64,000 nt of DNA from a virus (IMGVR_UViG_3300020411_000002); one strand, 5' to 3'; positions 16,757 through 36,883 are shown, counted from the stretch's first letter. Notes: generated by a model from the sequence alone, not told the origin. Program-made: numbers and translations.

Positions 16757-16800
16757 CGGGACAAAATGTTCAAAACATCACTGCTATATTTTGCTATACT
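16757..16800 (+). promoter_or_regulatory. Motif-A promoter
   Basis: CGGGACAAAA 16757-16766, 28-nt gap, TGcTATACT with hexamer 16795-16800. Confidence 0.7.
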
Positions 16801-16863: not shown

Positions 16864-18678
16864 ATGTCTATTTTAACAGATGCAAGCATGGTAGGTAAAA
16901 CAGTTAAAGCGCTAAACGGCGACCGTTGTAAGATCGTTAAAGCGTTAAAAGACAACTACAAGCTTGATAACGGAAATCTAATTCGTGCAAAGCAAGTTAT
17001 GCAGAAAGGGCGTGGATTTGTTCAGACTGACCTTACAATGCGCGATCTTGAAGACTCAGGTGCTGGATACGTAACACTAAAAGATTCTGGTACATCGAAG
17101 ACACCAGCAAAAAAGCCTGCAAACAAACCGGCTTCGAGTGGAACAAAGCAATCCAAAAACTCGGCGAAATCCAAAGAAGAAAAAACTGAGACTCGCCGCA
17201 AGCGTAAGCCAAAGCAAGAATCTAAAGAAGAAAAAGCTTCTACTCCACGCCGTACTCAAAGTTCAAAAACTAAGACACCAGCTAAAACACCTGATAAGAC
17301 ACCAGCTAAAACTAAGTCTAAGATTGAGCGTGTAGCGCTTGAAGGCAACAGCAAGTCTACATTGGAAAAGCTGCGTAAATTTATTGATATCACCGTGAAC
17401 GAACATTTAGTTACGTATCACTCAAACATTAATGCCGTAACTACAGGCGTATTAGTCAACAAAGACTATGACCAGATCGAATTCCAAGTTCGAGTAGCTC
17501 TAGACGTTCCTAAACCTGAACATCACAACAACGAATATTACTTTGCAATTGCTAAAGAAATCGGCGCGAACCTTAAAACACCTAGCTCAAAAATTCAAGC
17601 TATGCTTGCTACTCGCTTAGATATTGACGAAGCGGATCTTGAAGAAGAGTTTGTATTGAGTGTCGGCGATATCTTGCTTGATGAAGAAGGCAATCACCTT
17701 ATCTTCTGTGGTATGACTAAACGCTCTGGTAAGAATCAAATTGTTCTTGTCGATGTTAAGAATGAACAAGCGCTTGAAGTTGACCTGAAGTTCTTTGATA
17801 CGCTTGATTGGACTAGCTCTACACTAACTGAAATGTTCGGTCCTAGCATTGAAGATGTTGACGTTGCCGATGATGACCTGACTGACGACTTCGATATTGA
17901 AGATGAACTTGTACCAATTGCAGAACTTGATTGGGAAAATACAGACCGCGAAACCTTGATTGATTTACTATCTCTGAGCTACTCTGACGAAGACATTATT
18001 GAGTTCTTGGAAAACAACGATGACATCGAAGTGACCAAAGAAGATCTTGAAGCGCCGATTAATGAGTTGATTGAAAATCTGGTTTCTATCATGAAAGATG
18101 AAGAAATCGATTTTGAAGAAGATGATGATCTTGAAGCCGCTCTTGAAGAAGGCGACGACCTTGAAGATGATGAACTTGAAGATGATGAACTTGAAGATGA
18201 TGAACTTGAAGACGACCTAGACGAAGAGCTTGAAGACGAAGAGCTTGAAGACGATCTAGACGACGACCTAGAAGACGGTGAAGAAGTTGAAGTAGAAGAG
18301 CTTGATGTTGATGATATGCTTGAAGAGCTTCTAGCAAGCAATGCAATTACGGCAGCGCAATCTCGTAAAATGTCTGATGAAAAAATCGTAAGCAAATACT
18401 ACGAAGTGTTCGGCGAAGACGAAGACGAAGACGAGCTTGAAGAAGAGGCGGAAGAGTTAACAGTGGATGAAATGGCAGATGCCTTACTTGATGCCGATGT
18501 TATCTCTGCAAAAGAACTTCGCAAAATGAGCGATGAAGATATTGCCGAAGCATACGCTGAAAACTTTGATGCCGAACTTGATGCCGAAGAAGAAATCGAA
18601 GACGAAGACGAAGACGAACTTTTGGATGATGAAGAGCTTCTAGACGAAGACGACCTAGAAGACGACCTAGAAGACTAA
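16864..18678 (+). CDS. Charge-segregated low-complexity protein (basic N-terminal third, D/E-rich C-terminal half)
   Basis: 604 aa; KTPAKKP/KTPDKTPAK repeats; long EDDELEDD tracts; duplicated ...RKMSDE... module. Confidence 0.85.
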   Translation: MSILTDASMVGKTVKALNGDRCKIVKALKDNYKLDNGNLIRAKQVMQKGRGFVQTDLTMRDLEDSGAGYVTLKDSGTSKTPAKKPANKPASSGTKQSKNSAKSKEEKTETRRKRKPKQESKEEKASTPRRTQSSKTKTPAKTPDKTPAKTKSKIERVALEGNSKSTLEKLRKFIDITVNEHLVTYHSNINAVTTGVLVNKDYDQIEFQVRVALDVPKPEHHNNEYYFAIAKEIGANLKTPSSKIQAMLATRLDIDEADLEEEFVLSVGDILLDEEGNHLIFCGMTKRSGKNQIVLVDVKNEQALEVDLKFFDTLDWTSSTLTEMFGPSIEDVDVADDDLTDDFDIEDELVPIAELDWENTDRETLIDLLSLSYSDEDIIEFLENNDDIEVTKEDLEAPINELIENLVSIMKDEEIDFEEDDDLEAALEEGDDLEDDELEDDELEDDELEDDLDEELEDEELEDDLDDDLEDGEEVEVEELDVDDMLEELLASNAITAAQSRKMSDEKIVSKYYEVFGEDEDEDELEEEAEELTVDEMADALLDADVISAKELRKMSDEDIAEAYAENFDAELDAEEEIEDEDEDELLDDEELLDEDDLEDDLED

Positions 18679-18696
18679 TCTCATTCGGAGGCACTA

Positions 18697-19080
18697 ATGG
18701 AAAATCTTGAATCGATGTTTCTCGGTGCTGTCTATAGTGCAATTATTAAATCTGCAATCTCTAGTAAAGACGGGTACATGACTGTGCCCGAACTTACTAG
18801 CTACATTAACATTCTGCCTAAACGCGGTGTGGAAATGGCAAAGATTGTAAATGCAACTTTGTTGAAGATATCTAAGTTTGAAGCAAAGCACGGTCGACCT
18901 ATGCTCACTGCTATTGTCTGCAAGCAAGACAAAAAGAACAATGATATCTTTCCTAGTGATTGGTTTTTTACTTGCGCTAAAGAAGCGGGTTACGATGTTC
19001 CAGAAAACGAGACAGAAAGACTGACGTTTTGGAAATCTCAATTCGATGAAGTTCACGAATATTGGAACCTAAAAATCTAA
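18697..19080 (+). CDS. Stand-alone putative DNA-binding domain (GRPMLTAIV...PSDWFF...FW motif)
   Basis: GGAGG SD; motif recalled from domains often fused to HNH/restriction nucleases (unverified). Confidence 0.45.
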   Translation: MENLESMFLGAVYSAIIKSAISSKDGYMTVPELTSYINILPKRGVEMAKIVNATLLKISKFEAKHGRPMLTAIVCKQDKKNNDIFPSDWFFTCAKEAGYDVPENETERLTFWKSQFDEVHEYWNLKI

Positions 19081-19091
19081 CTGGAAATATT

Positions 19092-20441
19092 ATGTCTTAT
19101 ATAAGAATATTTGACGAAGTAGACCCAGATGGAATTCGCGCACTTGTACATGAGAAGTTAATTTTTCCAGCAGACCCAAAGTTAGACGGGTCTGCTTTAA
19201 CTGTAAAAATTCATGTGCCCGGTGAAGTGTATAAACATACTCAGGTGTTTGAGTTGCGAATATCCAAACACACGTTGAAAAGTCTAATTAAGCAAGCAAG
19301 CAGTGAGTACTCGCCTACGGTGTGTACAAAGATTGCAAGCTTGTATAGAGTTGGTTTAGGTCTGCCTCATTCAAAAGAATGTCATTTGCTATGGACGCAC
19401 TTAGCAGCAGGGTTTAGCCCAAAAGTGAACGGAAGAGTTTTTTCTTATTCTAATATGTTGCGTATACTTCGTGAGCATTGGAAACAGGTGAACTCTTCTA
19501 GTGTAGACCCGAACTGGTTTTATTTTAATACACAAACGGCGCACTATAAAGATTTGTTAGCTAGTACTTTTAGCACACTGAGTACGGAACGATTTATTCA
19601 AAAGAATCCTCCTTTCTCAGCGGCTCCAAGTCTGGATGGTTTAGAGTGTACGTTGGTATATCGCATTGATAAAGGTGCAAACAAAGCTCACCTGTATGCA
19701 GCATACTGTAAAGTGAACAATAAGTTTATGAACTTCACTGTTCAAGCTATGCAGTTTGTACGAAAGGAAATAGAATCAAACGTTCTAAGTTCATTCGGTC
19801 CGTACTTATTTGTTAGTGGTGTAGTGAGTATAAAGGCTCGTAACCTATCTAAACTTAGAAAGTATTGGGGAAAAGATTCTTCGGTCAAACAGCTTATACG
19901 TTGTTCTTTAGACCAAGACGTATTTTCACTTTCTGAAATGGATGGTGTTGATTTGCCTAGCTCTCACCCTAGCAGTGCGTTTGTTAAGAACTACAGATCG
20001 AAGTACAAGAAAGCAGTACGCTTCATTGTAGATAATAGTTCTAAGAAGCGACTCAGCCGCAATACGGTTATAATGCTAAGTAAAGCTACTAATCTGGTAG
20101 AGAAATACGAAGAGCATGAGCAGGTGGTTAACGAAGCAAAGGAAGAGAAACGTAAACTTCGTGAATACGATATCATCCCTAGCCTGTCCTTTGTTGCATA
20201 CGATATGTATAGCTACTGGAACGAAGAGTTAAAGCGGGTTTCAAATCCGCATGAGTCAGTACTAAAATTTCTTAGTACTATGTTTGAAACAATTACAACA
20301 ATAAAGCCGTTGTCTACACCTGAGCGTACTGCGCTAAAGTTGAGTAATAACACTCCACCCGGGTATACGAATAGCGGTGTGATGTACCGGTTAGCAGATG
20401 TATCAAGTACAAAAACTGTAAACTGGATTAAAGTTAAGTAA
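19092..20441 (+). CDS. Degenerate NAD+-dependent DNA ligase adenylation-domain-like protein
   Basis: PSLDGLECTLVY, LFVSGVVSI, LSFVAYD and NSGVMYRL are colinear with LigA motifs I, III, IIIa and IV; catalytic residues substituted. Confidence 0.5.
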   Translation: MSYIRIFDEVDPDGIRALVHEKLIFPADPKLDGSALTVKIHVPGEVYKHTQVFELRISKHTLKSLIKQASSEYSPTVCTKIASLYRVGLGLPHSKECHLLWTHLAAGFSPKVNGRVFSYSNMLRILREHWKQVNSSSVDPNWFYFNTQTAHYKDLLASTFSTLSTERFIQKNPPFSAAPSLDGLECTLVYRIDKGANKAHLYAAYCKVNNKFMNFTVQAMQFVRKEIESNVLSSFGPYLFVSGVVSIKARNLSKLRKYWGKDSSVKQLIRCSLDQDVFSLSEMDGVDLPSSHPSSAFVKNYRSKYKKAVRFIVDNSSKKRLSRNTVIMLSKATNLVEKYEEHEQVVNEAKEEKRKLREYDIIPSLSFVAYDMYSYWNEELKRVSNPHESVLKFLSTMFETITTIKPLSTPERTALKLSNNTPPGYTNSGVMYRLADVSSTKTVNWIKVK

Positions 20442-20457
20442 TAAAGAGGATTATACA

Positions 20458-21909
20458 ATGTCTAATGATCACGATCAAAATAAAGAAAACGTTTCTGCAA
20501 ATACTAATGTAGTAGAACATGATTCAACAAATTGGAAGCCTTCTGAAAAGAGCGCCGACGCGGAGCAAGTTACACAAGCAAATGTGGAAACTGTAAATAA
20601 TGAGCAGAACGAAAGTTCTAGTGAAATAACTCAACCTGATAATAAGGAAAACGAAGTGACGAATTCAAATGATCGTCAGCGTGCCGTAGCGATGGGTGCT
20701 AAGCTATCTCCCGAAGCTCGCGATGAAGCAATCGCTGAACAAAAAGAACGTAGTAACATTCCAGACCCTGTTACTACAGAGACTGCGAATGCAGACGTTG
20801 AAGTTGAGCTTACTACCGAAGACGCTGTTATGGGTATGGGCGTCGGTGTAGACGTTAGTGAAGCAATGGAGCTTGGTCAAGGCATTAGCAACACATTGCA
20901 AATCAACAAAGACTTGTTTGTTGATATGATGGACACCTACTCGCCGCGCATCGTAGTGCAGTTTATTGTTCCTGCTGGTAACATCGATACAGGTATTGAC
21001 TATCGTGAATTACATGAAGCCGAAGACGGTACTGAGTACAATCGAAACCTTACGATAGCTGTTCCAAAAGAAGGTAAGCCTGGCGGTCTGATGTACGATT
21101 CAGTTATGGAGCTTGTAACTAAAGCTTCTGAGTTCAATAATCTTGAATTCAATCTTGTGTCGGAATCTAACTTGATGGATTCTATGGGTCAGTTCGTAAT
21201 GCGTCGCTTTATCTCTGCACTAAGCGAAAACCCTTTCCCAATGGATGTAGAAGATATGCCGGAGCAACTTGGCTTTAACGCATTTACTTCTGCGGGTCTA
21301 CACCAAGACGACCCTGATACAATCGTAGTATCGCAACTTCTTCCGATACCGACATTAAACGGTGCAGCGAATAAAGCGGAACGTGCTGCAAAGCTTGTTC
21401 AGTACTTTGAACAACAAATCATGAATGCCGACTTAAATGTAGACGTTGAATTCGTTTATGTTGTCGATGCAGAAGAAGCTATCCTAGATAATGCCGCTAC
21501 TGAAATGGTACGCGCACTTACTACGGAACATGACTTCGAAACTGTGACTCTTGGCGATATCTTGAAGTATACAGAAGACAAGATGTTAGATGAAGACGAA
21601 CAATTATGGGACGACGAATACGAAGACTTCTACGAAGAAGAAAGACCTTACGACCCATCTGATGACGATGACGCCTTCGACCCGTCTGATGACGACGAAG
21701 ACGCTGATGAAGAATCTGATGATTTAGACGAAGAAAATGATGATTCTGATTCTGAACTTACTAATGTAGATGAAGACGAAGAAGAAAACTATTCTCTTCC
21801 TCTATCGATTTCACAAGATGCAACGCCTGAGTTGATGTTGGTAAGCACCCGCTTCTGCATCGAAAGCGCTGTAATCAATAACCCAATCTTTTTGGTGAAG
21901 AAGCTTTAA
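20458..21909 (+). CDS. Acidic protein with disordered N-terminus and D/E-rich C-terminal tract
   Basis: 483 aa; GAGGA SD; DPSDDDD repeats. Confidence 0.85.
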   Translation: MSNDHDQNKENVSANTNVVEHDSTNWKPSEKSADAEQVTQANVETVNNEQNESSSEITQPDNKENEVTNSNDRQRAVAMGAKLSPEARDEAIAEQKERSNIPDPVTTETANADVEVELTTEDAVMGMGVGVDVSEAMELGQGISNTLQINKDLFVDMMDTYSPRIVVQFIVPAGNIDTGIDYRELHEAEDGTEYNRNLTIAVPKEGKPGGLMYDSVMELVTKASEFNNLEFNLVSESNLMDSMGQFVMRRFISALSENPFPMDVEDMPEQLGFNAFTSAGLHQDDPDTIVVSQLLPIPTLNGAANKAERAAKLVQYFEQQIMNADLNVDVEFVYVVDAEEAILDNAATEMVRALTTEHDFETVTLGDILKYTEDKMLDEDEQLWDDEYEDFYEEERPYDPSDDDDAFDPSDDDEDADEESDDLDEENDDSDSELTNVDEDEEENYSLPLSISQDATPELMLVSTRFCIESAVINNPIFLVKKL

Positions 21910-21923
21910 GCTTCTTCCTTTTT
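21897..21923 (+). terminator. Intrinsic terminator
   Basis: GAAGAAGCT-TTA-AGCTTCTTC then CTTTTT, overlapping the stop of 20458-21909. Confidence 0.65.
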
Positions 21924-21937
21924 CTCGGAGTAAAGAA

Positions 21938-22468
21938 ATGAAACGTAATACTAAAACTACTGCTAAGAAAACTAAAGCCCCTGCCCGCGGTCGTAAGACT
22001 GGTACTGCTGTAGCTAAAGCTGGTCTTGTTCGTAACTCTCGTTTGCAGAAGCACGAAAGCCGTATCAACAACATGGGTACTGGTAAGCTTAGTGCTAAAC
22101 AGCTTTCATCTGTAGGTGCTTCGGTTGTTGTTCGCGCTAAAGACCAAGTTAGTCAAATGGTTGGTTTCTGCCTATCTGCTGATAACGACAAAGTTGTTAT
22201 TCGTACTAACAAGCGCCACGGTTCTTCTAAAGTAGTTATCAAAACAATCAAGCGTGAAGACATTGCGTATATGATTGGTGACGAAGGTTCTCACACTATG
22301 CTAGGTGTTATCAAAGAAGGCGAAGTGTTAGCGTTACCTAAGTGTACTGTTGAAATGAATGGTTCTATCGCTATCGTTACTGACTTGAAAACAGGTGACG
22401 TTATCGAAATTGACCAGTCTAATCCTAAGCTAGACGTTCAAATCGAATTTGACGAAGCTGCTGCATAA
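21938..22468 (+). CDS. Basic-tailed protein with a possible Sm/Lsm-like or SH3-like beta barrel
   Basis: N-terminal KRNTKTTAKKTKAPARGRK; VVVRAKDQVSQMVGFCLSADNDKVVIR...TIKREDIAYMI. Confidence 0.45.
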   Translation: MKRNTKTTAKKTKAPARGRKTGTAVAKAGLVRNSRLQKHESRINNMGTGKLSAKQLSSVGASVVVRAKDQVSQMVGFCLSADNDKVVIRTNKRHGSSKVVIKTIKREDIAYMIGDEGSHTMLGVIKEGEVLALPKCTVEMNGSIAIVTDLKTGDVIEIDQSNPKLDVQIEFDEAAA

Positions 22469-22488
22469 AAAGCTGCAAAAGCAAAAAC

Positions 22489-22496
22489 TGTAAATA
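22489..22496 (+). promoter_or_regulatory. Motif-B (AAAAACTGTAAATA)
   Basis: Intergenic, about 60 nt upstream of ORF 22557. Confidence 0.55.
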
Positions 22497-22556
22497 GTAC
22501 TCGTAAGCAATTACAATCCAACATTCAAAAACAAAACATCCTTTAAGGAAAAAGAA

Positions 22557-23513
22557 ATGCCAAGAAATGCAAAATCAAAAGCACCTGCAAAGCGTACTGC
22601 TAAGAAGACTAACGAAGCAATCGAGCTATTAAAGTCTTTATTAGTTGGTCTTTCAGAAGCGGCTAACGACGGTGACGCGGAATCTATTGAAATTCTTGAA
22701 GCCGCTGGTCTTTCAGTATCAGGTGAAGCCGTTGAAGATGACGAAGACGAAGAGCTTGAAGATGACGAAGACGAAGACGAACTTGAAGACGACGAAGACT
22801 TTGACCGTGATGAAATCATTGAAGCCTTAGCTGCCTTAAAGATTCGTGGCATTACCAAAGCCAAGTTAAACAAAGCTTCTGATGAAAAACTTCAAGAGCT
22901 TGCGGACAAGCACTTAGAAGACGAAGACGAAGAGCTTGAAGATGACGAAGACGAAGAGCTTGAAGACGAATTTGATCGTGAAGCAGTTATCGAAGAGCTT
23001 GCAGGTTTGCGTATTCGCGGTATCACAAAAGCTAAGCTGAATAAAGCTTCTGATGAAAAACTTCAAGATCTAGCCGATGAACACCTTGGTGAAATCGAAG
23101 ACGAAGAAGACGAAGAGCTTGAAGAAGACGAGGACGAAGTTCCAGATCTTGAAAGCATGGACGACAAAGAGCTAATCGCTCTTGCTAAGAAATTAAAACT
23201 TGGCAAAGGTCGCATGACTGCTGATAAGGCTTTTGACCTTCTTGACGAGCACTTCGCTGAAGGTGAAGAAGACGAAGAGCTTGAAGACGAAGAAGACGAA
23301 GAGCTTGAAGAAGACGAGGACGAAGCTCCAGATCTTGAAGAAATGAGCGAAAAAGAAGTTATCGCTCTAGCCAAGAAACTTGGATTGGTTAAAGGTCGCA
23401 AGGTCTCTTACGACGATGCATACGATGCGCTTGAAGAACACTTCGAAGGCGAAATCGATGAAGACGAAGACGAACTTGAAGACGAAGAAGACGATTGGGA
23501 AGACGATAATTAA
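22557..23513 (+). CDS. Highly acidic repeat protein with 2+2 helical modules (second pair Rho-N/HeH-like)
   Basis: Two copies of FDR..IE.LA.L.IRGITKAKLNKASDEKLQ.LAD.HL; two copies of PDLE.M..KE.IALAKKL.L.KGR; EDEELED spacers. Confidence 0.85.
   Translation: MPRNAKSKAPAKRTAKKTNEAIELLKSLLVGLSEAANDGDAESIEILEAAGLSVSGEAVEDDEDEELEDDEDEDELEDDEDFDRDEIIEALAALKIRGITKAKLNKASDEKLQELADKHLEDEDEELEDDEDEELEDEFDREAVIEELAGLRIRGITKAKLNKASDEKLQDLADEHLGEIEDEEDEELEEDEDEVPDLESMDDKELIALAKKLKLGKGRMTADKAFDLLDEHFAEGEEDEELEDEEDEELEEDEDEAPDLEEMSEKEVIALAKKLGLVKGRKVSYDDAYDALEEHFEGEIDEDEDELEDEEDDWEDDN
22730..23500 (+). repeat. In-frame coding direct repeats (GAAGACGAAGAGCTT-rich spacers and duplicated modules)
   Basis: Near-identical nucleotide blocks such as AAAGCTTCTGATGAAAAACTTCAAGA (x2) and GAAGAGCTTGAAGAAGACGAGGACGAAG (x2). 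Confidence 0.85.
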
Positions 23514-23565
23514 TATCGCCGTTTAATCTCTAAATCCAAATAACTAACTTTTACTTTTAATTACA

Positions 23566-23582
23566 GGGGGCTGCCCGCCCCC
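23566..23582 (+). terminator. GC-rich hairpin between 22557-23513 and 23610-24152
   Basis: GGGGGC-TGCCC-GCCCCC followed by TTACTCTT. Confidence 0.45.
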
Positions 23583-23609
23583 TTACTCTTACAATAATGG
23601 AGAATAAAA

Positions 23610-24152
23610 ATGGCGAAAATGGTATCACTTAAAGCGACTGACTTTAAAGCTGCTGGAACTAAAGTAAGTCAAATTCAAAAATCAATGGAAGGTTTTGCCT
23701 CTATTTCTGCACAACTTGAAGCGCTAGCTGCTAAAGTTGAAAATCCTCGTCTTGCTAAATCAATCACTACTCAGCAAAACAAAATCAATAAAGGTATCGA
23801 GCGCGTTGAAGGTCTTATTGAAGTACTTGTTGAAAAGATGACTTCGGAAGATGCTCCTGTTCCTGCGGCTGCTAAAGCTCCTGCAAAAGCAAAAGCACCT
23901 GCTAAAGCTCCTGCAAAAGCAAAAGCTGCTGCTACTAAAGCTCCTGCTCGTGGTAAAGCTACTGCTAAAACTCCACGCGGTAAAGCTGCTGCTACCAAGA
24001 CTGCAACCAAAGCAAAAGCTCCTGCTCGTGGTAAAGCAAAAGCTGCTGCTACTAAAGCTCCTGCTCGTGGTAAAGCAAAAGCAACTAAAGCACCAGCCCG
24101 TGGTCGCCGTTCAAAAGCTGCTGCTGGCGACGAGTTCGATTTCGAAAGCTAA
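23610..24152 (+). CDS. Histone H1-like / Hc1-AlgP-like Lys-Ala-Pro-rich nucleoid protein
   Basis: N-terminal coiled coil, then AKAPAKAK and TKAPARGK tandem repeats, acidic tip DEFDFES; biased GCT/AAA codons suggest high expression. Confidence 0.7.
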   Translation: MAKMVSLKATDFKAAGTKVSQIQKSMEGFASISAQLEALAAKVENPRLAKSITTQQNKINKGIERVEGLIEVLVEKMTSEDAPVPAAAKAPAKAKAPAKAPAKAKAAATKAPARGKATAKTPRGKAAATKTATKAKAPARGKAKAAATKAPARGKAKATKAPARGRRSKAAAGDEFDFES

Positions 24153-24153
24153 G

Positions 24154-24181
24154 TCTAGCGCTAGTTTTCTAGCTTAGATTT
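24154..24181 (+). terminator. Intrinsic terminator
   Basis: TCTAG-C-GCTAG-TTTT-CTAGC-TTAGA then TTT, directly after the stop. Confidence 0.6.
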
Positions 24182-24240
24182 ATATTGGGTCTGTAACATT
24201 AGAAGTGTTCAGACCCTTTACTCGTTTCATTGGGGTTTTT

Positions 24241-24774
24241 ATGCCAGCTTTTGTAGATGATATACAATTTGATAGGTGGTATGTTTCTGACCTAGTTCGC
24301 AAGGCAGAAAGTCTTACTTTTCTAACTGCTCAGTTAGAGTCTATGCGTTCACAAATAGAAAGTCATTTAGATGTTGTCGATGCCGAGCTTAGATTAGAGT
24401 ACTTCGAGATAAAAGAGGATGCTAGGTCAAAGTTTAATTCAGTTCAAGATATTGAAAATTGTGTCTTGGAATTGAGAAGAGCTAAGGCACGCCAGTCTAA
24501 ACTTACCAATCAAGAATATGTAAAGACATTAGAGTTAATCAAACTTCTATTGCGCTCCATTGCTAAGTACGTATACGATAACCTATCTAACGATGATAGA
24601 AAGACATTTGAACTCCGTTCATCAGACCCGTTCTTTGCTGACGTAGACGACAATGCTTTTTCAATGAGCAAACGCATTACAGAGGTTTTATCTAAGCAAA
24701 TATTAGAATATAAATCTGGTAAACAAAATGTCAGAATATCAAACAACCCAATACAAGGGTCTAAAGCTACTTGA
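24241..24774 (+). CDS. Hypothetical helical protein
   Basis: ATG 24241 (ORF track starts at GTG 24205); coiled-coil-like. Confidence 0.7.
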   Translation: MPAFVDDIQFDRWYVSDLVRKAESLTFLTAQLESMRSQIESHLDVVDAELRLEYFEIKEDARSKFNSVQDIENCVLELRRAKARQSKLTNQEYVKTLELIKLLLRSIAKYVYDNLSNDDRKTFELRSSDPFFADVDDNAFSMSKRITEVLSKQILEYKSGKQNVRISNNPIQGSKAT

Positions 24775-25132
24775 TGATACTCTTAAAAAGCTTCGCAACG
24801 ATATCTACAGAATTATAGAACTTCCTAACGGTTACTACTTTTGCGGATACGTTGAATTTTCTTCACTATCTTCCGATATCCTAAATGTTGAAATCGCACT
24901 TCTGGATATGAACTTTTCAAAAGTGGAAAGTGTTGACTTGGTTAGCTTTAATAGAGTTGTAGCCGAAAGCTTTTTAAGAATAAGAGCAGACTATCAAGCT
25001 TGGATTCAAACCTATTTAAGCGGTGGTGAATCTAGCTTTAGACGCGACGAAGAAGCTGAAAAGCTTTTCTCCGATTTTATTAACAAGTCTGATACTGAAC
25101 TAGATTTAGATATCAGAGAATTTTCATTGTAG
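24728..25132 (+). CDS. Hypothetical protein
   Basis: 134-aa ORF. Confidence 0.7.
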   Translation: MSEYQTTQYKGLKLLDDTLKKLRNDIYRIIELPNGYYFCGYVEFSSLSSDILNVEIALLDMNFSKVESVDLVSFNRVVAESFLRIRADYQAWIQTYLSGGESSFRRDEEAEKLFSDFINKSDTELDLDIREFSL

Positions 25133-25141
25133 GGAACGCTA

Positions 25142-27187
25142 ATGGCAATTAGAAAAAGACGAACCAGCCCCGCGAAGACCCCTGCCAAGTCTCAATCGTA
25201 TGACGAAGATAGCATTAAGTTCCAAGAAGGTCTTAATGGTATTCGTGCCAATCCATCTATGTATTTAGGTGCGCTTGGTAATCCTATGGTATTCCGAATG
25301 GTAAAGGAAGCTGTAGATAACGTGTACGATGAATTTGCAGCAGGTCGTAACACAGGTGCTGAGATTATTGTTAATCCAAAAGACAACTCGTATATTATTG
25401 CTGACTACGCTCAAGGTATTCCAGTTGGATTAAAGCAGACCGAACACGAAGGCAAAGTTAGTGCAATGACTTTGATTCTTACCAAAGTTCATGCTGGTGG
25501 TAAGTTTGATGATACTGCATATAAAACATCTAGTGGTACTCACGGTGTTGGTATCGCAGCCGTTAACGCCGCATCTAGTGTTATGGAAGTTTGGACTAAG
25601 CGTGAAAAAGTTTGGTATGTGCAAACGTTCAAGAAAGGTGTTGCTGATGCCAAAGTTAAAAAGCTTGGTACACGAGCACCTGCCGCATTCAAGAACTTTG
25701 ACTTAGCAGAAAAAACTATCAGCAAGTATGGAACTATTGTTAGATTCATACCAGACCAAACCGTTGTGTCCGAAGACGCTGCTCGTGGTTCACGTAAAGT
25801 AGCAGAAGACAAGTTGACTGTAGCAAAGCTTGAACTTGGTACAGCCGGTAGCTGGTTACGCGACTTAGCAATGCTTAACCCAGGCTTCCACATTACTTAC
25901 ACTTGCGTTGGTAAAGGTTCTAAGAAGTTTGTGAACACTAAAGGTCTAGACTGGTTAGTGTTGAACAGAATCAAAGAAGCAGAAGCACAAGCTGTATCCC
26001 GTAAACCTTTCATGTACGAAGATGAAGACCTGTCTTGTGCTATCACTTGGACTGACCAAGCAGACGATCATTTATTTACTTCGTATGTTAACAGTTCACC
26101 TACAGTAGAACATGGTACTCACGTTGAAGGTTTCCGTTCTGCTCTACAAAAAGCTATCAAGCCGCATCTTACTGATCGTGACAAGAAAGCAAAGTTCACT
26201 GTTCATGATTTGATGATAGGTGCTTGCGGTGTGTTGAACTTTAAAATGAACTCTGCTCAGTATAGTTCACAGGTTAAAGATAAGCTAGTATCAAAAGTTG
26301 CTAAAGACGTTGAAACAAAGCTTGAAGAATCTTTATTCGAATGGTTCAAAGATAATCCGCGTATTGCAAAGAACATTATCAAGAAAGCTACTACTGCTAA
26401 CAATGCCCGCGAATCTCTAAAGAAAGTCATGAAGTCTATGACAGAAGTTCGTAAGAAGTCTCGCGGTGTTTTGCCTGAGAACTTAACAGAAGCACCAAAC
26501 GTTAAACCTGACCAACGTGAAATATACATCGTTGAGGGGGACTCTGCTGGTGGTACTGCAAAGAATGCTAGAAACTCTAATCAAGAGATATTGAAAATGT
26601 CTGGTAAGCCTGCCAACGCCCTCAATATATCTTTGGATAAGCTGTTAAACTCGCAAGCAGTACTAAACATTATTATTTCGTTAGGTATTGACCCAGGCTC
26701 TCTAGACATACAAGCTGACAGTCCTAAGTTTAGCTCTGATAAGTTACGTTGCCAACGTGTTTACTTGCTCTCTGACCCAGATCCAGACGGTGCTCACATT
26801 AACGTATTGCTTTTGTGTTTCTTTTTCCGCTTGCTACCAGACTTTATAAAAGAAGGTCGATTGTATTGCGTAGAAGGTAAACTTTACTCTGCTCTATACA
26901 AAGGAAAGCTTTATTCTGGTGACACGTTTGATGAATGTTATAGCTCGATGCCACAAACAGAAGAAGCTAAGAAAGCAATAACACGTATCAAAGGATGGGG
27001 AGAAGTTAACCCAGATATGCTTGACCCAATCGCTTTCGATCCAGATACAAGACTGGTACGTCAAATATCTTGGAACGATGACCCTGCAAAAATTGCTTAC
27101 TTCCGAAACATTGCTGCCGAGTCTGCGGCTGAGAAGCGTAAACTTCTTGGACTTAAAGAATCGCGTCCAGCTTTAGAAGAAGCTTAG
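25142..27187 (+). CDS. gyrB: Type IIA DNA topoisomerase, B (ATPase/TOPRIM) subunit
   Basis: EAVDN, QGIP, HAGGKF, GTHGVG, EGDSAGG, DPDPDGAHI, RIKGWGE motifs; GyrB/ParE-like. Confidence 0.93.
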   Translation: MAIRKRRTSPAKTPAKSQSYDEDSIKFQEGLNGIRANPSMYLGALGNPMVFRMVKEAVDNVYDEFAAGRNTGAEIIVNPKDNSYIIADYAQGIPVGLKQTEHEGKVSAMTLILTKVHAGGKFDDTAYKTSSGTHGVGIAAVNAASSVMEVWTKREKVWYVQTFKKGVADAKVKKLGTRAPAAFKNFDLAEKTISKYGTIVRFIPDQTVVSEDAARGSRKVAEDKLTVAKLELGTAGSWLRDLAMLNPGFHITYTCVGKGSKKFVNTKGLDWLVLNRIKEAEAQAVSRKPFMYEDEDLSCAITWTDQADDHLFTSYVNSSPTVEHGTHVEGFRSALQKAIKPHLTDRDKKAKFTVHDLMIGACGVLNFKMNSAQYSSQVKDKLVSKVAKDVETKLEESLFEWFKDNPRIAKNIIKKATTANNARESLKKVMKSMTEVRKKSRGVLPENLTEAPNVKPDQREIYIVEGDSAGGTAKNARNSNQEILKMSGKPANALNISLDKLLNSQAVLNIIISLGIDPGSLDIQADSPKFSSDKLRCQRVYLLSDPDPDGAHINVLLLCFFFRLLPDFIKEGRLYCVEGKLYSALYKGKLYSGDTFDECYSSMPQTEEAKKAITRIKGWGEVNPDMLDPIAFDPDTRLVRQISWNDDPAKIAYFRNIAAESAAEKRKLLGLKESRPALEEA

Positions 27188-27195
27188 GAGTTACT

Positions 27196-27663
27196 ATGGA
27201 TAGTGTAAACCCTGTTGAAGTTTTTATGATAGTAGATATTGTGTTTACTTCGCTTTATGATGATTCTACTAGCGGAATGTATAACATGAATATTTCTAAA
27301 CCTACTTGGGTTAGTGCTACGTTACATCAGATGAACGACGAACTTGTATTTCCAACGTTTGCACTATCTGTAATTTGTCCTTTCGTTATAGGCAAAGATG
27401 GAACAATCTATAAATGTTCATACAATAAAGATATTGAAGGAGTTGAATACTTTGGATATGAAATGGAATTTGTTGAAGGAATATGCTTGAATACAAATGA
27501 CGGTCTTTGGGACTGGAAAGAAAAAACAAGCAAGAGAGCTGTTATAGGTACTATTAAAAGAGTCTACGGTAGTATAGCCAAATTCAGACAGCAAATTGAA
27601 AAATACCCCTATGACAATTCTCTTTTAAAATCCATTATAACAGGAGCAGAGTTGGAACTATGA
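27196..27663 (+). CDS. Hypothetical protein between the topoisomerase subunits
   Basis: AGGAG SD; 155 aa. Confidence 0.75.
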   Translation: MDSVNPVEVFMIVDIVFTSLYDDSTSGMYNMNISKPTWVSATLHQMNDELVFPTFALSVICPFVIGKDGTIYKCSYNKDIEGVEYFGYEMEFVEGICLNTNDGLWDWKEKTSKRAVIGTIKRVYGSIAKFRQQIEKYPYDNSLLKSIITGAELEL

Positions 27664-28196
27664 GCACACACGAGATTTCGAAAACAGAATTTGATAGTAA
27701 AGTTATTTTGTATCTAGATCCTGGGTCTCGTCCTATCAATCAGGAGTACACGCAACGCTGGTTTAGCTTGCCTGCTTTTGTAGATGAAGACTCCAAGCAG
27801 ATAATAGTGCCTGGGTCTATCTCTACTTTGTATCGTGCGCGTATAGTTATAACTGACGATAGAACAGTCCGCAAGTTCGGCAAAGCTCTTAATCTTAATG
27901 GAAAGAAGTTGCTACCTCCCACTTACGATGATCTTATTTCAAAGTGTGTTCACGTAGAGGAAGGCTTCAACGAGTTTGTTAATACTGAGAACTGGATCAA
28001 AACAAGTTCTTTTAAATCGTATTCTCACTATCAGAAGTTTTGGCAAGAGGGCGAACCTTTTACAATTCCGAATCCTGAATATATTGACTTGTACAAACTG
28101 TTTAGAGATATAAGCGTTAAAGCTTGTCCGTCATTGCACGGCAATCCGAGTGGTGAAAGTACCGACACTAATCACGTAGTATGTAGCGATTGCTAA
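27660..28196 (+). CDS. Hypothetical protein between the topoisomerase subunits
   Basis: ATGA overlap; 178 aa; C-terminal CPSLH...HVVCSDC. Confidence 0.75.
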   Translation: MSTHEISKTEFDSKVILYLDPGSRPINQEYTQRWFSLPAFVDEDSKQIIVPGSISTLYRARIVITDDRTVRKFGKALNLNGKKLLPPTYDDLISKCVHVEEGFNEFVNTENWIKTSSFKSYSHYQKFWQEGEPFTIPNPEYIDLYKLFRDISVKACPSLHGNPSGESTDTNHVVCSDC

Positions 28197-28198
28197 AC

Positions 28199-28206
28199 TG
28201 TAAATA
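28199..28206 (+). promoter_or_regulatory. Motif-B (AAACTGTAAATA)
   Basis: Intergenic, 31 nt upstream of the topoisomerase A start. Confidence 0.55.
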
Positions 28207-28237
28207 AGAACTAACTTTATACTTAAAGGTTTTTCCA

Positions 28238-29818
28238 ATGAGAAGAAGAAAGTCTGCTACCGAGGCAGAAAGCCCACCAGCAAGAAGAACGAGAAAGAGA
28301 AGAAGCTTATCTGCTTTACGCGATAAGACAAAAACTGGTACTCGCAGAAAAGCACCTAGTACGGCAACGCCCTCAGAAGACTCTGTATCTATAGATTCTT
28401 TTGCAGCCGCATCATTAAAACAATATGGTAGCTACGTTGTAGAAGAAAGGTCTATCACTGATTTTCGTGATGGACTAAAGCCCGTTCACCGTTACATTTT
28501 ATGGGCTATGAAGAACCTTGGTTTGAACTCCAAGTCTAAATATAAAAAGTCTGCTCGTACTATTGGTGACGTTCTTGGTAAGTACCACCCTCACGGCGAC
28601 CAAGCTGCTTACGGTGCAATGGCAACTCTAGTTAACTACAAGCTATCTCCACAATTGGTAGATGGACAAGGTAACTGGGGTACTCCTGTTGATAACCAAG
28701 CTGCTATGCGTTATACAGAAGCACGACTTAGCGCAATGAGTGATATCTTTCTATTGGATAAAGGTTATCTTAAAACTGTTCCAATGGTAGACAACTTTGA
28801 TAACTCAGAGAAAGTACCTCTATACCTACCAGCGACCTTACCAATGCTTCTTGTTCTTGGTAGCTCTGGTATAGGCTTTGGTGTTAAGTCTGACAGTCCT
28901 CCGTTTAACATAGATGGAGTATACGAACTTGTTCTGCTTGGATTGAAAGCGTTCAGAGCCAACAAGAAGCTGGGTCCTAATAATTGTGCTAAGCATTTAC
29001 GTATAGATTATTCTTACGGTGGTGTTCAAGTTAGTGAAGACGAAGACGTTGCTAATCTTATCAAGTACGGTAAAGGAAGTATCAAGTTTGCACCAGAAGT
29101 AAATGCAGACTGGAAGAACAAACTGATTGAGATTAAGTCCTTCTCTCCAGGCTTTAGAAGTTCTAATGTTATTCAGAAGAAGCTTGCTAAGTTTGCAGAA
29201 ATGGATGCAGTGTCTAAAGCTGGCGACGATTCAAACGAGAAGAATCCTAAGTCAGGACCTCTTGGTGCTTACTTCTACATAAAACCTGCTCGTGGACTTT
29301 CAGAAGAAAAGTTCTTTGACTTGGCAGAGCAAGTATTCAAAGAGTTGGTATCTAGCGAGTCTTATGATTTAGGCTTTACGGTTCGTAGAGCAGATGACTC
29401 CAACATGTTTGTTAAGTCTAGCTTTGTAACATTCTTCAATAACTGGATCAAGTATCGTGTACAGTTAGAGATTGATTACCTACAAGCCTTAATAGATGAA
29501 TGCTTAACTCAGATAGAAAGAACTGAACTTCTTATCTTTGGTGTAGATAACAGACAAGTAATCATCAAGTCACTAGATAGTAAGGACCCAGATAAGTTCC
29601 TTATTACTAAGCTGAAAATTTCTGCTGAAAAAGCAAAGGCTATACTAGACCTTCAAGTTCGTAAACTTGCTAAGTTAGAAAAGCCAGCACTGCTTCAAAA
29701 GATTAAAGAGTTAAAGGCAGAGATTAGACAGTACAAGCAAGACCAAGAAGATCCAACGCCTAGAATTGCTGCTAAGACAAAAGAGCAATTCAAAGCCTAC
29801 AAGTCCCGTGTTAAATAA
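28238..29818 (+). CDS. gyrA: Type IIA DNA topoisomerase, A (cleavage) subunit lacking the C-terminal beta-pinwheel
   Basis: DGLKPVHR, KSARTIGDVLGKYHPHGD, DGQGNWG, AAMRYTEARL (catalytic Tyr); ends at 526 aa. Confidence 0.92.
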   Translation: MRRRKSATEAESPPARRTRKRRSLSALRDKTKTGTRRKAPSTATPSEDSVSIDSFAAASLKQYGSYVVEERSITDFRDGLKPVHRYILWAMKNLGLNSKSKYKKSARTIGDVLGKYHPHGDQAAYGAMATLVNYKLSPQLVDGQGNWGTPVDNQAAMRYTEARLSAMSDIFLLDKGYLKTVPMVDNFDNSEKVPLYLPATLPMLLVLGSSGIGFGVKSDSPPFNIDGVYELVLLGLKAFRANKKLGPNNCAKHLRIDYSYGGVQVSEDEDVANLIKYGKGSIKFAPEVNADWKNKLIEIKSFSPGFRSSNVIQKKLAKFAEMDAVSKAGDDSNEKNPKSGPLGAYFYIKPARGLSEEKFFDLAEQVFKELVSSESYDLGFTVRRADDSNMFVKSSFVTFFNNWIKYRVQLEIDYLQALIDECLTQIERTELLIFGVDNRQVIIKSLDSKDPDKFLITKLKISAEKAKAILDLQVRKLAKLEKPALLQKIKELKAEIRQYKQDQEDPTPRIAAKTKEQFKAYKSRVK

Positions 29819-35999: not shown

Positions 36000-36883
36000 T
36001 GCTTGATAATTCAGATTTAAACCCGTATGGATACTTAGGGGACGCAATTGAAGAAGTACCGATATCAGAAGTACATAGGTTAGTTCAATCCAGACCTAAT
36101 GAGTTCATGGATATGAAAAAGCCTTTTCGTGGGGTGAAAGTTGTAGACTTTAATACGATTCCTGCTGTCGGTACTGATATAGTTTTCATTGCAGAGCATA
36201 ACAAGAAAATCATTGAGGGTCTTTTAATTCCCAAACGTGAAGAGTCTAGAGCCGTAGAAATCGCTAACGAAATTGATAGAGATAGTGCGGCACGTATAGA
36301 CTTGGACTTGATTAGACAACGCATAGCAGAATCTAAGAAAGGTCACACTCGCGATACAGTTACTCCAAAGCCAAATGGTTTACTTGAAGAGGGCGAACGA
36401 GGTCGTGCAGTTGAGAACATAGTTCCAATAAGTAAAGAAGATATTGAACGTAGTTTTGACTTAACGGAAAAGACTGCAAAGCAAATAGGTGATAGGGTGG
36501 CTAAACATCTTAGCTATCTCATTAGCTTTGATAATGCTGGAAGTTATGTAGAGGCGTTCGCCCGAGACGGATTGGATATTGAATCTGAAATAAATGTAGA
36601 CGATAGCCCACTCCACTTCTTATCGCAGTTGTGTTCTATTGATTCTTTGTACTTTTATCTTAAAAAGATGCGACTCCCAAAAGCCTATAAAGATATGTAC
36701 ATGGAACGAGTTATTCACTACTACGTAGAACGAGCAGCGAAAGACTCGGACAATGCTAGAACCAGTGAGCGTTTGCGCAGACTAAACAACGTCCAAAGCG
36801 CAGCAGGTCAAGTCAAAGAAGACGACAACAAGAATGCTCACGGCTTAGTTAGATCTAGACAAACAAACAGGACTCACTATTAG
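35999..36883 (+). CDS. Hypothetical protein directly upstream of the terminase (small-terminase position)
   Basis: 294 aa; TAATG overlap with the helicase; function from position only. Confidence 0.7.
   Translation: MLDNSDLNPYGYLGDAIEEVPISEVHRLVQSRPNEFMDMKKPFRGVKVVDFNTIPAVGTDIVFIAEHNKKIIEGLLIPKREESRAVEIANEIDRDSAARIDLDLIRQRIAESKKGHTRDTVTPKPNGLLEEGERGRAVENIVPISKEDIERSFDLTEKTAKQIGDRVAKHLSYLISFDNAGSYVEAFARDGLDIESEINVDDSPLHFLSQLCSIDSLYFYLKKMRLPKAYKDMYMERVIHYYVERAAKDSDNARTSERLRRLNNVQSAAGQVKEDDNKNAHGLVRSRQTNRTHY

What the first reader, a model, noticed from the sequence alone, without database searches (positions are those of the whole stretch)
16864..29818. Candidate electrostatic scaffold/client system: acidic disordered proteins plus basic tails on core enzymes
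Seen: three large D/E-dominated low-complexity proteins (16864, 20458, 22557) cluster with an H1-like Lys/Ala protein (23610), a basic-tailed Sm-like protein (21938) and both topoisomerase subunits. Core enzymes carry Lys/Arg-rich extensions outside their catalytic cores: topo B MAIRKRRTSPAK, topo A MRRRKS...RRTRKRRS, helicase C-tail RRSSRRKRKR...RRRSK, terminase KKRRLKRRKR, exonuclease SKKAKKQ and portal AKKNKSKK. Established: oppositely charged disordered proteins (prothymosin-alpha with histone H1) bind very tightly and can phase-separate. Inference: the basic tails act as address tags that recruit replication and packaging enzymes to an acidic scaffold, giving a shell-less replication factory or nucleoid with histone-chaperone-like partners.
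Basis: partly seen in the sequence, partly recalled or inferred. Interest (0 to 1): 0.82.

Follow-up and report, generated by a model that had tools for sequence, protein, structure and literature searches.

The report
Charged-protein cassette beside jumbo-phage topoisomerase
A marine giant phage, like its whole clade, carries three very acidic proteins, a lysine/alanine-repeat protein and basic-tailed DNA enzymes next to its topoisomerase; the set probably organises DNA by charge, but whether the enzyme tails are "address tags" for an acidic scaffold is not shown.

Summary
The window is a marine jumbo phage of the Lu11/PaBG/NCTB/Erwinia-Dickeya ("Lupandier") group. It encodes proteins of net charge -117, -87 and -95, a +25 Lys/Ala/Pro-repeat protein, a beta-rich protein with a basic tail, and both topoisomerase II subunits.

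The gene order and the charges are conserved in at least ten diverged lineages. The acidic proteins are only about half disordered. They have folded cores and share a 41-residue helical module.

The basic tails are real and clade-specific for topo A, less clearly for topo B, TerL and portal:
- Topo A: net +10 median in 43 phage homologues, -2 in 77 bacterial ParC.
- TerL: the tail needs an ATT start in this window.
- Helicase: the tail is a net-neutral polyampholyte. Its conserved part is an acidic stretch ending in a hydrophobic tip.
- Exonuclease: the tail is not conserved.
- One relative has the cassette but untailed topoisomerase.

Best reading: a polycation/polyanion kit that coats or organises DNA and works with replication. 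The tails are simpler to explain as DNA tethers. The scaffold-client condensate idea is neither excluded nor supported.

No family membership was found and no paper describes the cassette. This scan had already found the same module on other DNA (e1-4038889, e1-3420511).

The parts
16864..18678 (+). acidic1. It has a small N-terminal beta domain, a K/T/P/A-rich basic block (about residues 75-165), a folded core (about 164-310), and a poly-D/E region with 2-3 helical modules. Net charge -117.
   Evidence: phrog_33433 matches residues 1-286. Orthologues in NCTB, L004 and Y3 gp315.
18697..19080 (+). Small conserved protein of the cassette, function unknown.
   Evidence: 54% identical orthologue in NCTB. 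Positional counterpart in L004 and Y3 gp317.
19062..20441 (+). Basic 459-aa protein with a DNA-ligase adenylation-domain-like lead.
   Evidence: phrog_35683. Atlas feature score 0.87 to DNA_ligase_A_M clusters and TM 0.43 to LigA models. This is a lead only.
20458..21909 (+). acidic2. It has a disordered N-terminus, an alpha/beta core (about 155-380) of no recognised fold, and a D/E tail. Net charge -87.
   Evidence: Only 8 representatives among 1.84 billion proteins. No fold match: Foldseek E > 0.06, VIA Z 4.3 or less.
21938..22468 (+). Beta-rich protein with a basic N-terminal tail (MKRNTKTTAKKTKAPARGRK).
   Evidence: phrog_22271. Alignment A1. Homologues lie 3-5 kb upstream of topo B in 58 Erwinia/Dickeya/Yersinia jumbo-phage records.
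22557..23513 (+). acidic3. It has a basic N-terminus, a conserved helical head, four 41-residue helical modules separated by poly-D/E, and a C-terminal DDW tip. Net charge -95.
23610..24152 (+). K/A/P-repeat polycation (the 'H1-like' protein). It has a helical N-terminal 80 residues, KAPAK/KAPARGK repeats, and an invariant E-F-D-F C-terminal tip. Net charge +25.
   Evidence: The tip recurs in Lu11, L062 and L064-L068.
24205..25132 (+). Two small ORFs between the polycation gene and topo B (24205-24774 and 24728-25132). Two small genes occupy the same position in relatives, without detected sequence similarity.
   Evidence: no BLASTP hit at E 1e-5.
25142..27187 (+). Topoisomerase II subunit B (GyrB/ParE-like) with a 16-residue basic N-tail that holds two K-T/S-P-A-K motifs.
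   Evidence: Pfam and PHROG. Tails in orthologues. Motif.
28238..29818 (+). Topoisomerase II subunit A (ParC/GyrA N-terminal part only) with a 45-residue N-terminal extension of net +13.
29988..31394 (+). Conserved coiled-coil-rich protein that follows topo A throughout the clade.
   Evidence: phrog_34809. Orthologues in NCTB (40%) and Y3 gp330.
34524..35999 (+). DnaB-type helicase with a 71-residue C-terminal polyampholyte tail that ends DDMVLV.
36879..40559 (+). Large terminase with an intein. The basic N-terminus (IRRIRKSS...KKRRLKRRKR) is present only if translation starts at ATT 36879.
41470..43344 (+). Portal protein with a short basic C-terminal tip (AKKNKSKK).
46225..47310 (+). 5'-3' exonuclease with a weakly basic N-terminus that is not conserved.
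16757..16766 (+). CGGGACAAAA motif followed by a TATACT-like box, upstream of acidic1. The same motif lies upstream of 7871, 15932 and 29988, and inside the 3' end of 15932, about 80 nt upstream of 16378.
   Evidence: 7 sites at up to 1 mismatch against 2.7 expected; 5 of them are exact.
22488..22496 (+). CTGTAAATA motif (annotated in Lu11 as a 'middle/late promoter') upstream of acidic3. Exact copies also lie upstream of topo A (28198) and the exonuclease (46183).
21897..21917 (+). Terminator-like hairpin after acidic2. A second one follows the polycation gene at 24160-24173.

Best explanation
The region is the replication-module core of a marine jumbo phage of the Lu11/PaBG/NCTB/Erwinia-Dickeya group. 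It holds a conserved polycation/polyanion cassette placed just upstream of the two type II topoisomerase genes.

The polycation is a K/A/P-repeat protein with a helical, probably oligomerising head and an invariant E-F-D-F C-terminal tip. Related K-(T/A)-P-A-(K/R) segments occur on the beta-rich protein, on acidic1, on acidic3 and on topo B. I infer that these segments coat or tether DNA without sequence preference. This would resemble linker-histone tails and bacterial AlgP, PhaF and Hc1.

The three acidic proteins each combine a folded part with long D/E tracts. Acidic1 and acidic3 also carry 2-4 copies of one helical module. I infer that they act as DNA-like counter-ions. They could keep the polycation soluble, load it or strip it from DNA, and compete with DNA for basic segments. 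That is the logic of histone chaperones.

The module probably works together with replication and topoisomerase.

The basic extensions on topo A, topo B, TerL and portal are real traits of this phage clade. They are most simply explained as extra DNA-binding elements. Topo A has lost the ParC/GyrA C-terminal DNA-binding domain.

Shown: anatomy, charges, conservation, clade-specificity of the tails, and lack of family membership. Inferred: DNA binding, polycation-polyanion pairing, and timing.
For: Conservation:
- Gene order and net charges are kept in NCTB, metagenome contig L004 and Erwinia phage Y3. Acidic1 is -117/-118/-85/-56, acidic3 is -95/-100/-117/-90, and the polycation is +25/+28/+42/+30. 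The folded parts share only 23-46% identity.
- A very acidic protein next to a K/A/P-rich basic protein with an acidic-aromatic tip, close to topo II, recurs in L062, L065, L067 and L068. The two lie near but not adjacent to each other, around topo II, in L064 and Motura. In Lu11 the polycation and an acidic protein lie 10-15 kb downstream of topo II. In L066 only the polycation lies within the contig.
- The E-F-D-F tip is invariant in four aligned lineages.
- LEDDE repeat number varies between otherwise identical copies, 552-608 aa. This fits a function of bulk charge.

Shared motifs:
- The K-(T/A)-P-A-(K/R) motif occurs 14 times in the window, all in five proteins of this region. Within-protein shuffles give 0.5.
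- The 41-residue module is shared by acidic1 and acidic3 in four lineages. It is modelled as confident helices at pLDDT 81-90.

Tails:
- Topo A: 43 phage-type homologues have a median 46-residue extension of net +10. 77 bacterial ParC have 10 residues of net -2. PF03989 occurs only in the bacterial hits.

Context:
- The neighbours are UvdE, a ligase-like protein, topo II, DnaB and a 5'-3' exonuclease.
- Acidic3, topo A and the exonuclease share the CTGTAAATA upstream motif.
- Separate acidic proteins sit in the structural module of the relatives.
Against: - There is no experimental datum on DNA binding, partner binding, timing or location.
- The polycation matches no H1, Hc1 or HC2 family model. 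The resemblance is compositional only.
- The CTGTAAATA motif also precedes many other genes on both strands of Y3, so it does not fix the timing.
- The virion proteome of phage Y3 (Buttimer et al. 2018) could not be read. A virion-internal role is therefore not excluded.
- The complex prediction of acidic3 with the polycation gave no verdict.
- Acidic2 has no detectable homologue in Y3. Only a positional, compositional counterpart exists.
Confidence: 0.45

Rival explanations
1. The acidic proteins form a multivalent scaffold, such as a coacervate or shell-less factory. Basic tails act as address tags that concentrate replication and packaging enzymes in it.
For: - Strong opposite charges and blocky charge patterning, with kappa 0.36-0.45 for acidic1 and acidic3.
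- Repeated modules give multivalency.
- Terminal basic patches are enriched on DNA-handling proteins, p = 2.4e-4.
- The tails of topo A, TerL and portal are conserved in the clade and absent from bacterial ParC.
- Topo B shares the K-T-P-A-K motif with cassette proteins.
Against: - Tails and cassette are not coupled. L064 has the cassette without topo tails, and L062 has only a weak topo A tail.
- The helicase tail is net neutral, and its conserved part is acidic plus a hydrophobic tip.
- The exonuclease tail is not conserved.
- Basic tails on DNA enzymes bind DNA by default, and topo A lacks its usual DNA-binding C-terminal domain.
- No binding or phase-separation evidence exists.
Confidence: 0.2
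2. The charged proteins are virion-internal or ejected proteins. The polycation neutralises packaged DNA. The acidic proteins are core or scaffold parts, or cargo injected with the genome.
For: - TerL and portal lie on the same strand 13-18 kb downstream.
- From established knowledge, T4 internal proteins and the phiKZ inner body show that large phages package charged proteins.
- The CTGTAAATA motif is annotated 'middle/late' in Lu11.
Against: - The cassette sits among repair and replication genes in every lineage.
- Other acidic proteins lie inside the conserved structural module of NCTB and Y3. They are better candidates for head core or scaffold.
- The limited PaBG virion list, 14 bands of which only the first rows were read, gives no link.
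Confidence: 0.12
3. The acidic proteins are DNA mimics for host takeover or counter-defence. They would sequester host nucleoid proteins, restriction enzymes or other DNA binders. The polycation would condense or silence host DNA.
For: - Extreme negative charge.
- From established knowledge, phage DNA mimics such as Ocr, Arn and phi29 p56 are acidic.
- Repeat-length variation between strains would fit an arms race.
Against: - From established knowledge, known mimics are compact folded proteins, not poly-D/E tracts with repeated modules.
- The strict pairing with a phage-encoded polycation and with topo II across the clade points to an internal partner rather than a host target.
- There is no match in PHROG functional categories.
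Confidence: 0.12
4. The decisive elements are short C-terminal acidic-hydrophobic tips rather than bulk charge. These tips are (D/E)FDF on the polycation, DD-Y/L-A/V-L-S on the helicase, IELGDL on the 31874 protein, and DENF/EFDE on the beta-rich protein. They would dock onto a common hub, as SSB tails or T7 gp2.5/gp4 tails do. The charged tracts would be linkers or autoinhibitors.
For: - The tips are the best conserved parts of these tails across the clade.
- No canonical SSB (PF00436) or beta clamp (PF00712) is encoded in NCTB, Y3 or Lu11. An unconventional hub is therefore plausible.
Against: - No hub was identified.
- The resemblance to SSB and T7 tails rests on recalled knowledge, not on a test.
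- The tips differ between proteins.
Confidence: 0.1

Closest known systems
Linker histone H1 C-terminal tail with polyacidic chaperones (prothymosin-alpha, nucleoplasmin, NAP1/SET)
   Same: A Lys/Ala/Pro-rich disordered polycation is encoded beside extremely acidic, partly disordered proteins. Their charges are of similar size and opposite sign. K-T/A-P-A-K motifs resemble the S/TPKK-type motifs of H1 tails.
   Different: There is no winged-helix globular domain and no Pfam H1 match. This is a phage, not a eukaryote. The acidic proteins have folded cores and a repeated helical module. The polycation has a conserved EFDF tip. No binding has been shown.
Bacterial H1-like proteins: Pseudomonas AlgP and PhaF, chlamydial Hc1/Hc2
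   Same: K/A/P repeat arrays. As in PhaF, a helical N-terminal part precedes the repeats.
   Different: No significant match to PF07432 or PF07382. One orthologue reaches E 0.01, below the cut-off. The acidic-aromatic C-terminal tip and the paired polyacidic genes are not features of those proteins, as far as I know.
Histone H1-like gene (PF07432) reported in aquatic 'moraphage' jumbo phages (PMC12619734)
   Same: A jumbo-phage genome encoding a protein called H1-like.
   Different: That protein is a Pfam Hc1 family member, and this one is not. No acidic partners or topoisomerase linkage appeared in the passages searched.
SSB C-terminal tip and T7 gp2.5/gp4 acidic C-terminal tails
   Same: A DNA-associated protein or helicase ends in an acidic stretch with a terminal aromatic or hydrophobic residue. 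The tip is the most conserved part.
   Different: No OB fold was detected. The comparison is from recalled knowledge only. No partner is known.
Chimalliviridae phage nucleus (protein-shell replication compartment)
   Same: A jumbo phage that may organise its replicating DNA in a dedicated structure.
   Different: This phage belongs to a different clade, the Lupandier group (PMC7412058). No shell protein was looked for here. In those phages import is not known to use linear basic tags (recalled knowledge).
phi29 p6 (histone-like) and p56 (acidic DNA mimic)
   Same: A phage encodes both a DNA-compacting protein and a small acidic DNA-like protein within its replication functions.
   Different: The sequences, sizes and architecture are unrelated. 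p56 targets host UDG rather than p6 (recalled knowledge; review PMC4974454 was listed but not read).

Membership tests
Type IIA topoisomerase, two-subunit form | GyrB/ParE-type ATPase, transducer and Toprim domains in one subunit, and the GyrA/ParC breakage-reunion domain in the other | tested here: met
   PF02518, PF00204, PF01751 and PF00986 on 25142-27187. PF00521 (E 6e-70) on 28238-29818. phrog_543 and phrog_551.
Bacterial ParC/GyrA | C-terminal beta-pinwheel DNA-binding domain (PF03989) | tested here: not met
   The phage subunit is 526 aa with PF00521 only. PF03989 is listed only for the 740-780 aa bacterial hits.
Linker histone H1/H5 (PF00538) | Winged-helix globular domain flanked by basic tails | tested here: not met
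   No Pfam match for P0004 or its three orthologues at E up to 1.
Chlamydial Hc1 (PF07432) / HC2 (PF07382) | Profile match above the family cut-off | tested here: not met
   Only one of four orthologues touches PF07382, at E 0.01 and below the cut-off. There is no PF07432 hit.
Sm/LSm fold (claimed for 21938) | Sm1/Sm2 motifs or an LSm profile match; bent five-stranded beta-sheet | tested here: inconclusive
   No Pfam or NCBIfam hit. Atlas feature scores of 0.76-0.80 to small beta-barrel families are at chance level.
HeH / SAP / Rho_N helix-extended-helix motif (for the 41-residue module) | Profile match to PF07498, PF02037 or PF12949; two helices joined by an extended basic loop | tested here: inconclusive
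   Rho_N at 16.9 bits against a cut-off of 24.9, covering half a module. A profile of 17 modules finds no related solved structure. AlphaFold2 models helix, short helix, helix at pLDDT 81-90.
Condensate scaffold-client system | Multivalent scaffold with repeated interaction modules or blocky charge | tested here: met
   Four modules in acidic3 and 2-3 in acidic1. Kappa is 0.45 and 0.36.
Condensate scaffold-client system | Clients carry a shared tag that co-varies with the scaffold | tested here: not met
   The tails differ in composition and net charge: topo A +13, helicase about +2. They are absent from topo II in L064 although the cassette is present.
Condensate scaffold-client system | Demixing and selective partitioning in vitro or in cells | not testable with these tools
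   This needs purified proteins or imaging.
Single-stranded DNA-binding protein (PF00436) | OB-fold profile match | tested here: not met
   No cassette protein matches any Pfam OB-fold family. PF00436 is absent from the whole NCTB, Y3 and Lu11 records, while 10 of 14 control genomes ring.

The most novel reading that the evidence does not exclude
A whole clade of jumbo phages builds a protein-only, charge-driven DNA compartment, a kind of phage 'chromatin'. A K/A/P polycation coats DNA. Multivalent polyacidic proteins act as its chaperone-scaffold. Replication and packaging proteins are recruited through charged tails and conserved acidic-hydrophobic tips. This would be a shell-less counterpart of the chimallivirus nucleus.
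Probability: 0.15. Interest if true: 0.85.

Novelty: new variant of a known kind. Interest (0 to 1): 0.6.

Why it matters
If the cassette organises phage DNA by polycation/polyanion interplay, it would be a second way for giant phages to structure their replicating genome. The first is the protein-shelled phage nucleus. It would also be a prokaryotic-virus parallel to histone plus histone-chaperone logic.

It is conserved in cultivable Erwinia, Dickeya, Yersinia and Pseudomonas phages, so it can be tested directly.

The clade-wide basic extension on a topoisomerase that has lost its C-terminal DNA-binding domain is a separate question for topoisomerase enzymology.

The papers I could search do not describe the cassette. 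A 2026 paper on phage SPO1 still says it has remained unclear whether phase separation contributes to phage development (PMC13401047, abstract).

Tried and rejected
- Megablast of the topo region against phage records found nothing. The nearest record came only from protein search (NCTB, 73%).
- Pfam, NCBIfam and PHROG gave no function for the five charged proteins or for single modules.
- AlphaFold2 models of acidic1 and acidic2 (pLDDT 55.7 and 56.6) gave no fold match. Foldseek against PDB gave nothing at E 0.001 or better. VIA-align gave a best Z of 4.3, which is within noise.
- Atlas searches for the beta-rich protein and for acidic3 were at chance level.
- The complex prediction of acidic3 with the K/A/P protein scored 0.00, which is no verdict. 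It counts neither for nor against binding.
- BLASTP finds no similarity between acidic2 and its positional counterpart Y3 gp320.
- The beta-rich protein has no homologue in Lu11 or Motura.
- Promoter-motif timing was not decisive. CTGTAAATA precedes acidic3, topo A and the exonuclease here. In Y3 it also precedes many other genes on both strands. The sigma-70 consensus scan was not above shuffles.
- The Y3 paper with the virion proteome is not held. The Dickeya paper has no proteomics. The PaBG list covers only 14 gel bands, and I did not map the cassette orthologues onto it.
- A gp45-type clamp search (PF02916) was uninformative, because nothing rang in the controls.
Those rows were dropped and not sent elsewhere.
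- I did not test for a chimallin-type shell protein.

Full report
**What the window is.** The window has 36-45% G+C, and nearly all genes up to about 53 kb lie on the + strand. Megablast finds no phage record. Protein search places the topoisomerase B subunit nearest to Phage NCTB at 73%. Erwinia, Dickeya, Pseudomonas Lu11 and Achromobacter Motura jumbo phages follow at 43-45%. A published comparison groups Lu11, PaBG, NCTB (called a Trichodesmium phage there) and the Dickeya and Erwinia phages as the 'Lupandier group' (PMC7412058). Exact copies of the first acidic protein lie on contigs of about 243 kb, and some of its variants come from Tara Oceans data. No whole genome is held for the window.

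**Checking the observation.** The ORFs and quoted strings are all present.

| ORF | Length (aa) | Net charge | Note |
|---|---|---|---|
| 16864 | 604 | -117 | acidic1 |
| 20458 | 483 | -87 | acidic2 |
| 22557 | 318 | -95 | acidic3 |
| 23610 | 180 | +25 | K/A/P repeats |
| 21938 | 176 | +10 over its first 30 residues | beta-rich |

Both topoisomerase subunits, the DnaB helicase, the 5'-3' exonuclease and the portal are confirmed by Pfam or PHROG.

Three corrections are needed:
- The terminase string KKRRLKRRKR lies upstream of the first standard start codon at 37047. That frame is open from 36849. Residues 37-75 of an ATT-36879 reading align in register with residues 38-76 of the ATG-started NCTB TerL (E 3e-5). 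NCTB TerL begins MKRIRKKSKE...KKKIKRVRRR. The tail is therefore probably real but needs a non-standard start.
- The helicase tail is a polyampholyte with 21 K/R and 19 D/E.
- 'Sm-like' has no support beyond a beta-rich sequence.

**The acidic proteins are not featureless.**
- Acidic1 has a small N-terminal domain, which is homologous to Y3 gp315 at E 9e-15. A conserved basic K/T/P/A block follows, then a core and a poly-D/E region.
- AlphaFold2 puts 52% of acidic1 below pLDDT 50. It models segments 350-412, 481-519 and 531-570 as helices at pLDDT 81-90.
- Acidic2 has an alpha/beta core at about residues 155-380 with pLDDT 75-89. No fold match was found. The family has only 8 representatives among 1.84 billion proteins.
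- Acidic3 alternates poly-D/E blocks of -15 to -22 per 30 residues with near-neutral 41-residue modules.
- The same module occurs in acidic1. I aligned 17 copies from four lineages.
- The module gives only a sub-threshold Rho_N match and no solved relative.

**Conservation.**
- The order acidic1, small protein, ligase-like protein, acidic2, beta-rich protein, acidic3, K/A/P protein, two small genes, topo B, small genes, topo A, coiled-coil protein is kept in NCTB, in a 278-kb metagenome contig and in Erwinia phage Y3. Net charges are preserved while the folded parts share 23-46% identity.
- Homologues of the beta-rich protein lie a few kb upstream of topo B in 58 phage records.
- I fetched seven further contigs through their topo A proteins. 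Four of them (L062, L065, L067, L068) have a very acidic protein beside a K/A/P-rich protein with an acidic-aromatic tip, upstream of topo B. In L066 only the polycation lies within the contig, which ends just upstream of it. L064 has both proteins on either side of topo II. L063 has only a mildly acidic protein.
- Motura has an acidic protein just upstream of topo B and a K/A/P-rich protein just after topo A. Lu11 has a K/A/P-rich protein with a DFDDFE tip and an acidic protein 10-15 kb downstream of topo II.
- The polycation tip E-F-D-F is invariant in the four-way alignment.
- Acidic3 ends in DDW or DF.
- Public copies of acidic1 that are identical in the first 345 residues differ in the number of LEDDE repeats, giving 552-608 aa.

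**Testing the tails.**
- *Topo A.* In 43 short phage-type homologues the part upstream of the conserved core has a median of 46 residues and net +10, and 81% reach +5 or more. In 77 bacterial ParC it is 10 residues and net -2, and 1% reach +5. The bacterial hits carry the PF03989 C-terminal domain and the phage proteins do not.
- *Topo B.* Short basic N-tails occur in the window, NCTB, L004, Y3, Lu11, L062, L067 and L068. They are weak in Motura, L065 and L066, and absent in L063 and L064.
- *TerL and portal.* Basic ends recur in NCTB, Y3, Lu11 and Motura.
- *Exonuclease.* The tail is weak and not conserved.
- *Helicase.* Among 120 homologues, 88% have a C-terminal extension of 30 residues or more. 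Most of these extensions are acidic, 56% also hold 8 or more K/R, and most end in a tip such as DDYALS or DDLVLG.
- *Within the window.* 6 of 9 DNA-handling proteins have a terminal patch of +6 or more, against 5 of 61 other proteins (p = 2.4e-4).
- *A more specific link.* The pentapeptide K-(T/A)-P-A-(K/R) occurs 14 times, only in acidic1, the beta-rich protein, acidic3, the K/A/P protein and the topo B tail. Within-protein shuffles give 0.5. Local low-complexity composition may inflate this count.

**Does the address-tag idea hold?**
- The tails do not track the cassette. L064 has the polycation and an acidic protein but untailed topo subunits. L062 has the full pair with a topo A tail of only +2.
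- The tails are heterogeneous in charge and composition.
- A DNA-tethering role explains the topo A, TerL and portal tails without a scaffold.
- In favour of the idea, the acidic proteins do have a scaffold-like architecture, with repeated modules and blocky charge. Several proteins of the module also end in conserved acidic-hydrophobic tips. This hints at docking motifs rather than bulk charge.
- NCTB, Y3 and Lu11 encode no Pfam SSB or beta clamp.

**Timing and location.**
- A CGGGACAAAA motif followed by a -10-like box precedes acidic1 and a few other genes.
- CTGTAAATA, annotated as 'middle/late' in Lu11, precedes acidic3, topo A and the exonuclease. In Y3 it also precedes many other genes on both strands.
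- Terminator-like hairpins follow acidic2 and the polycation gene.
- These data fit co-expression with replication genes but do not prove it.
- I could not obtain virion proteomics for the clade.

**Comparison with what is known.** No cassette protein belongs to a described family. The nearest analogies are functional:
- H1 tails with acidic chaperones.
- AlgP, PhaF and Hc1.
- SSB and T7 tails.
- phi29 p6 and p56.

An H1-like Pfam member has been reported in another jumbo lineage (PMC12619734). My literature searches found no description of this cassette.

**Earlier notes of this scan.** Follow-up reports on an Erwinia jumbo phage (e1-4038889) and on a near relative of this genome (e1-3420511) reached the same general reading of the charged module. 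Their claims of conservation and lack of family membership are reproduced here independently. The new element here is the test of the enzyme tails.

**Verdict.** The best reading is a polycation/polyanion DNA-organising kit linked to topoisomerase and replication (confidence about 0.45). The scaffold-client address-tag mechanism stays a minority possibility at about 0.2.

Noticed in passing
window 36846-37046 and 37047-40559: TerL probably starts at ATT 36879, which overlaps the stop codon of the upstream gene (ATTAG). The gene also holds an intein with a LAGLIDADG domain (PF14890, PF14528).
   Followed up: partly
window 19062-20441: A basic 459-aa protein in the cassette gives a DNA-ligase adenylation-domain lead: Atlas feature score 0.87, TM 0.43 to LigA models. 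There is no Pfam hit. This is the same lead as first-stage note e1-5319628.
   Followed up: partly
window 31874-32788: This protein belongs to phrog_17701, which is annotated 'DNA topoisomerase'. It has a basic patch followed by a conserved C-terminal tip, IELGDL(E/D)D, which is also seen in NCTB, Y3, L067 and L068.
   Followed up: partly
window 44945-45388: A fourth very acidic protein of 147 aa, net -41. Its NCTB orthologue (151 aa, net -55) ends EDDDWKM, which recalls the DDW tip of acidic3.
   Followed up: no
window 2-1873: A 623-aa ORF of net -51 at the window edge. It has no homologue in NCTB, Y3, Lu11 or Motura and no Pfam or PHROG hit.
   Followed up: no
window 7799, 15491, 16296, 16757, 29826: An exact CGGGACAAAA motif, in four of the five cases in an intergenic region about 30 nt upstream of a TATAAT-like box (the copy at 16296 lies inside gene 15932). 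At up to one mismatch there are 7 sites against 2.7 expected. This is probably a phage-specific promoter class.
   Followed up: partly
NCTB, Y3 and Lu11 whole records (W04, W03, W01): No Pfam SSB (PF00436) and no beta-clamp (PF00712) match anywhere in these three jumbo-phage genomes, although the controls ring.
   Followed up: partly
window 18160-18277, with proteins P0006-P0016: The number of LEDDE-type repeats differs between otherwise identical public copies of acidic1 (552-608 aa). This points to slippage-prone tracts that tolerate length change.
   Followed up: partly
NCTB record 240160-240807 (-) and Lu11 82804-84093 (-): Further K/A/P-rich ORFs, of net +64 and +97, lie far from the topoisomerase. 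I did not check whether they are real genes.
   Followed up: no
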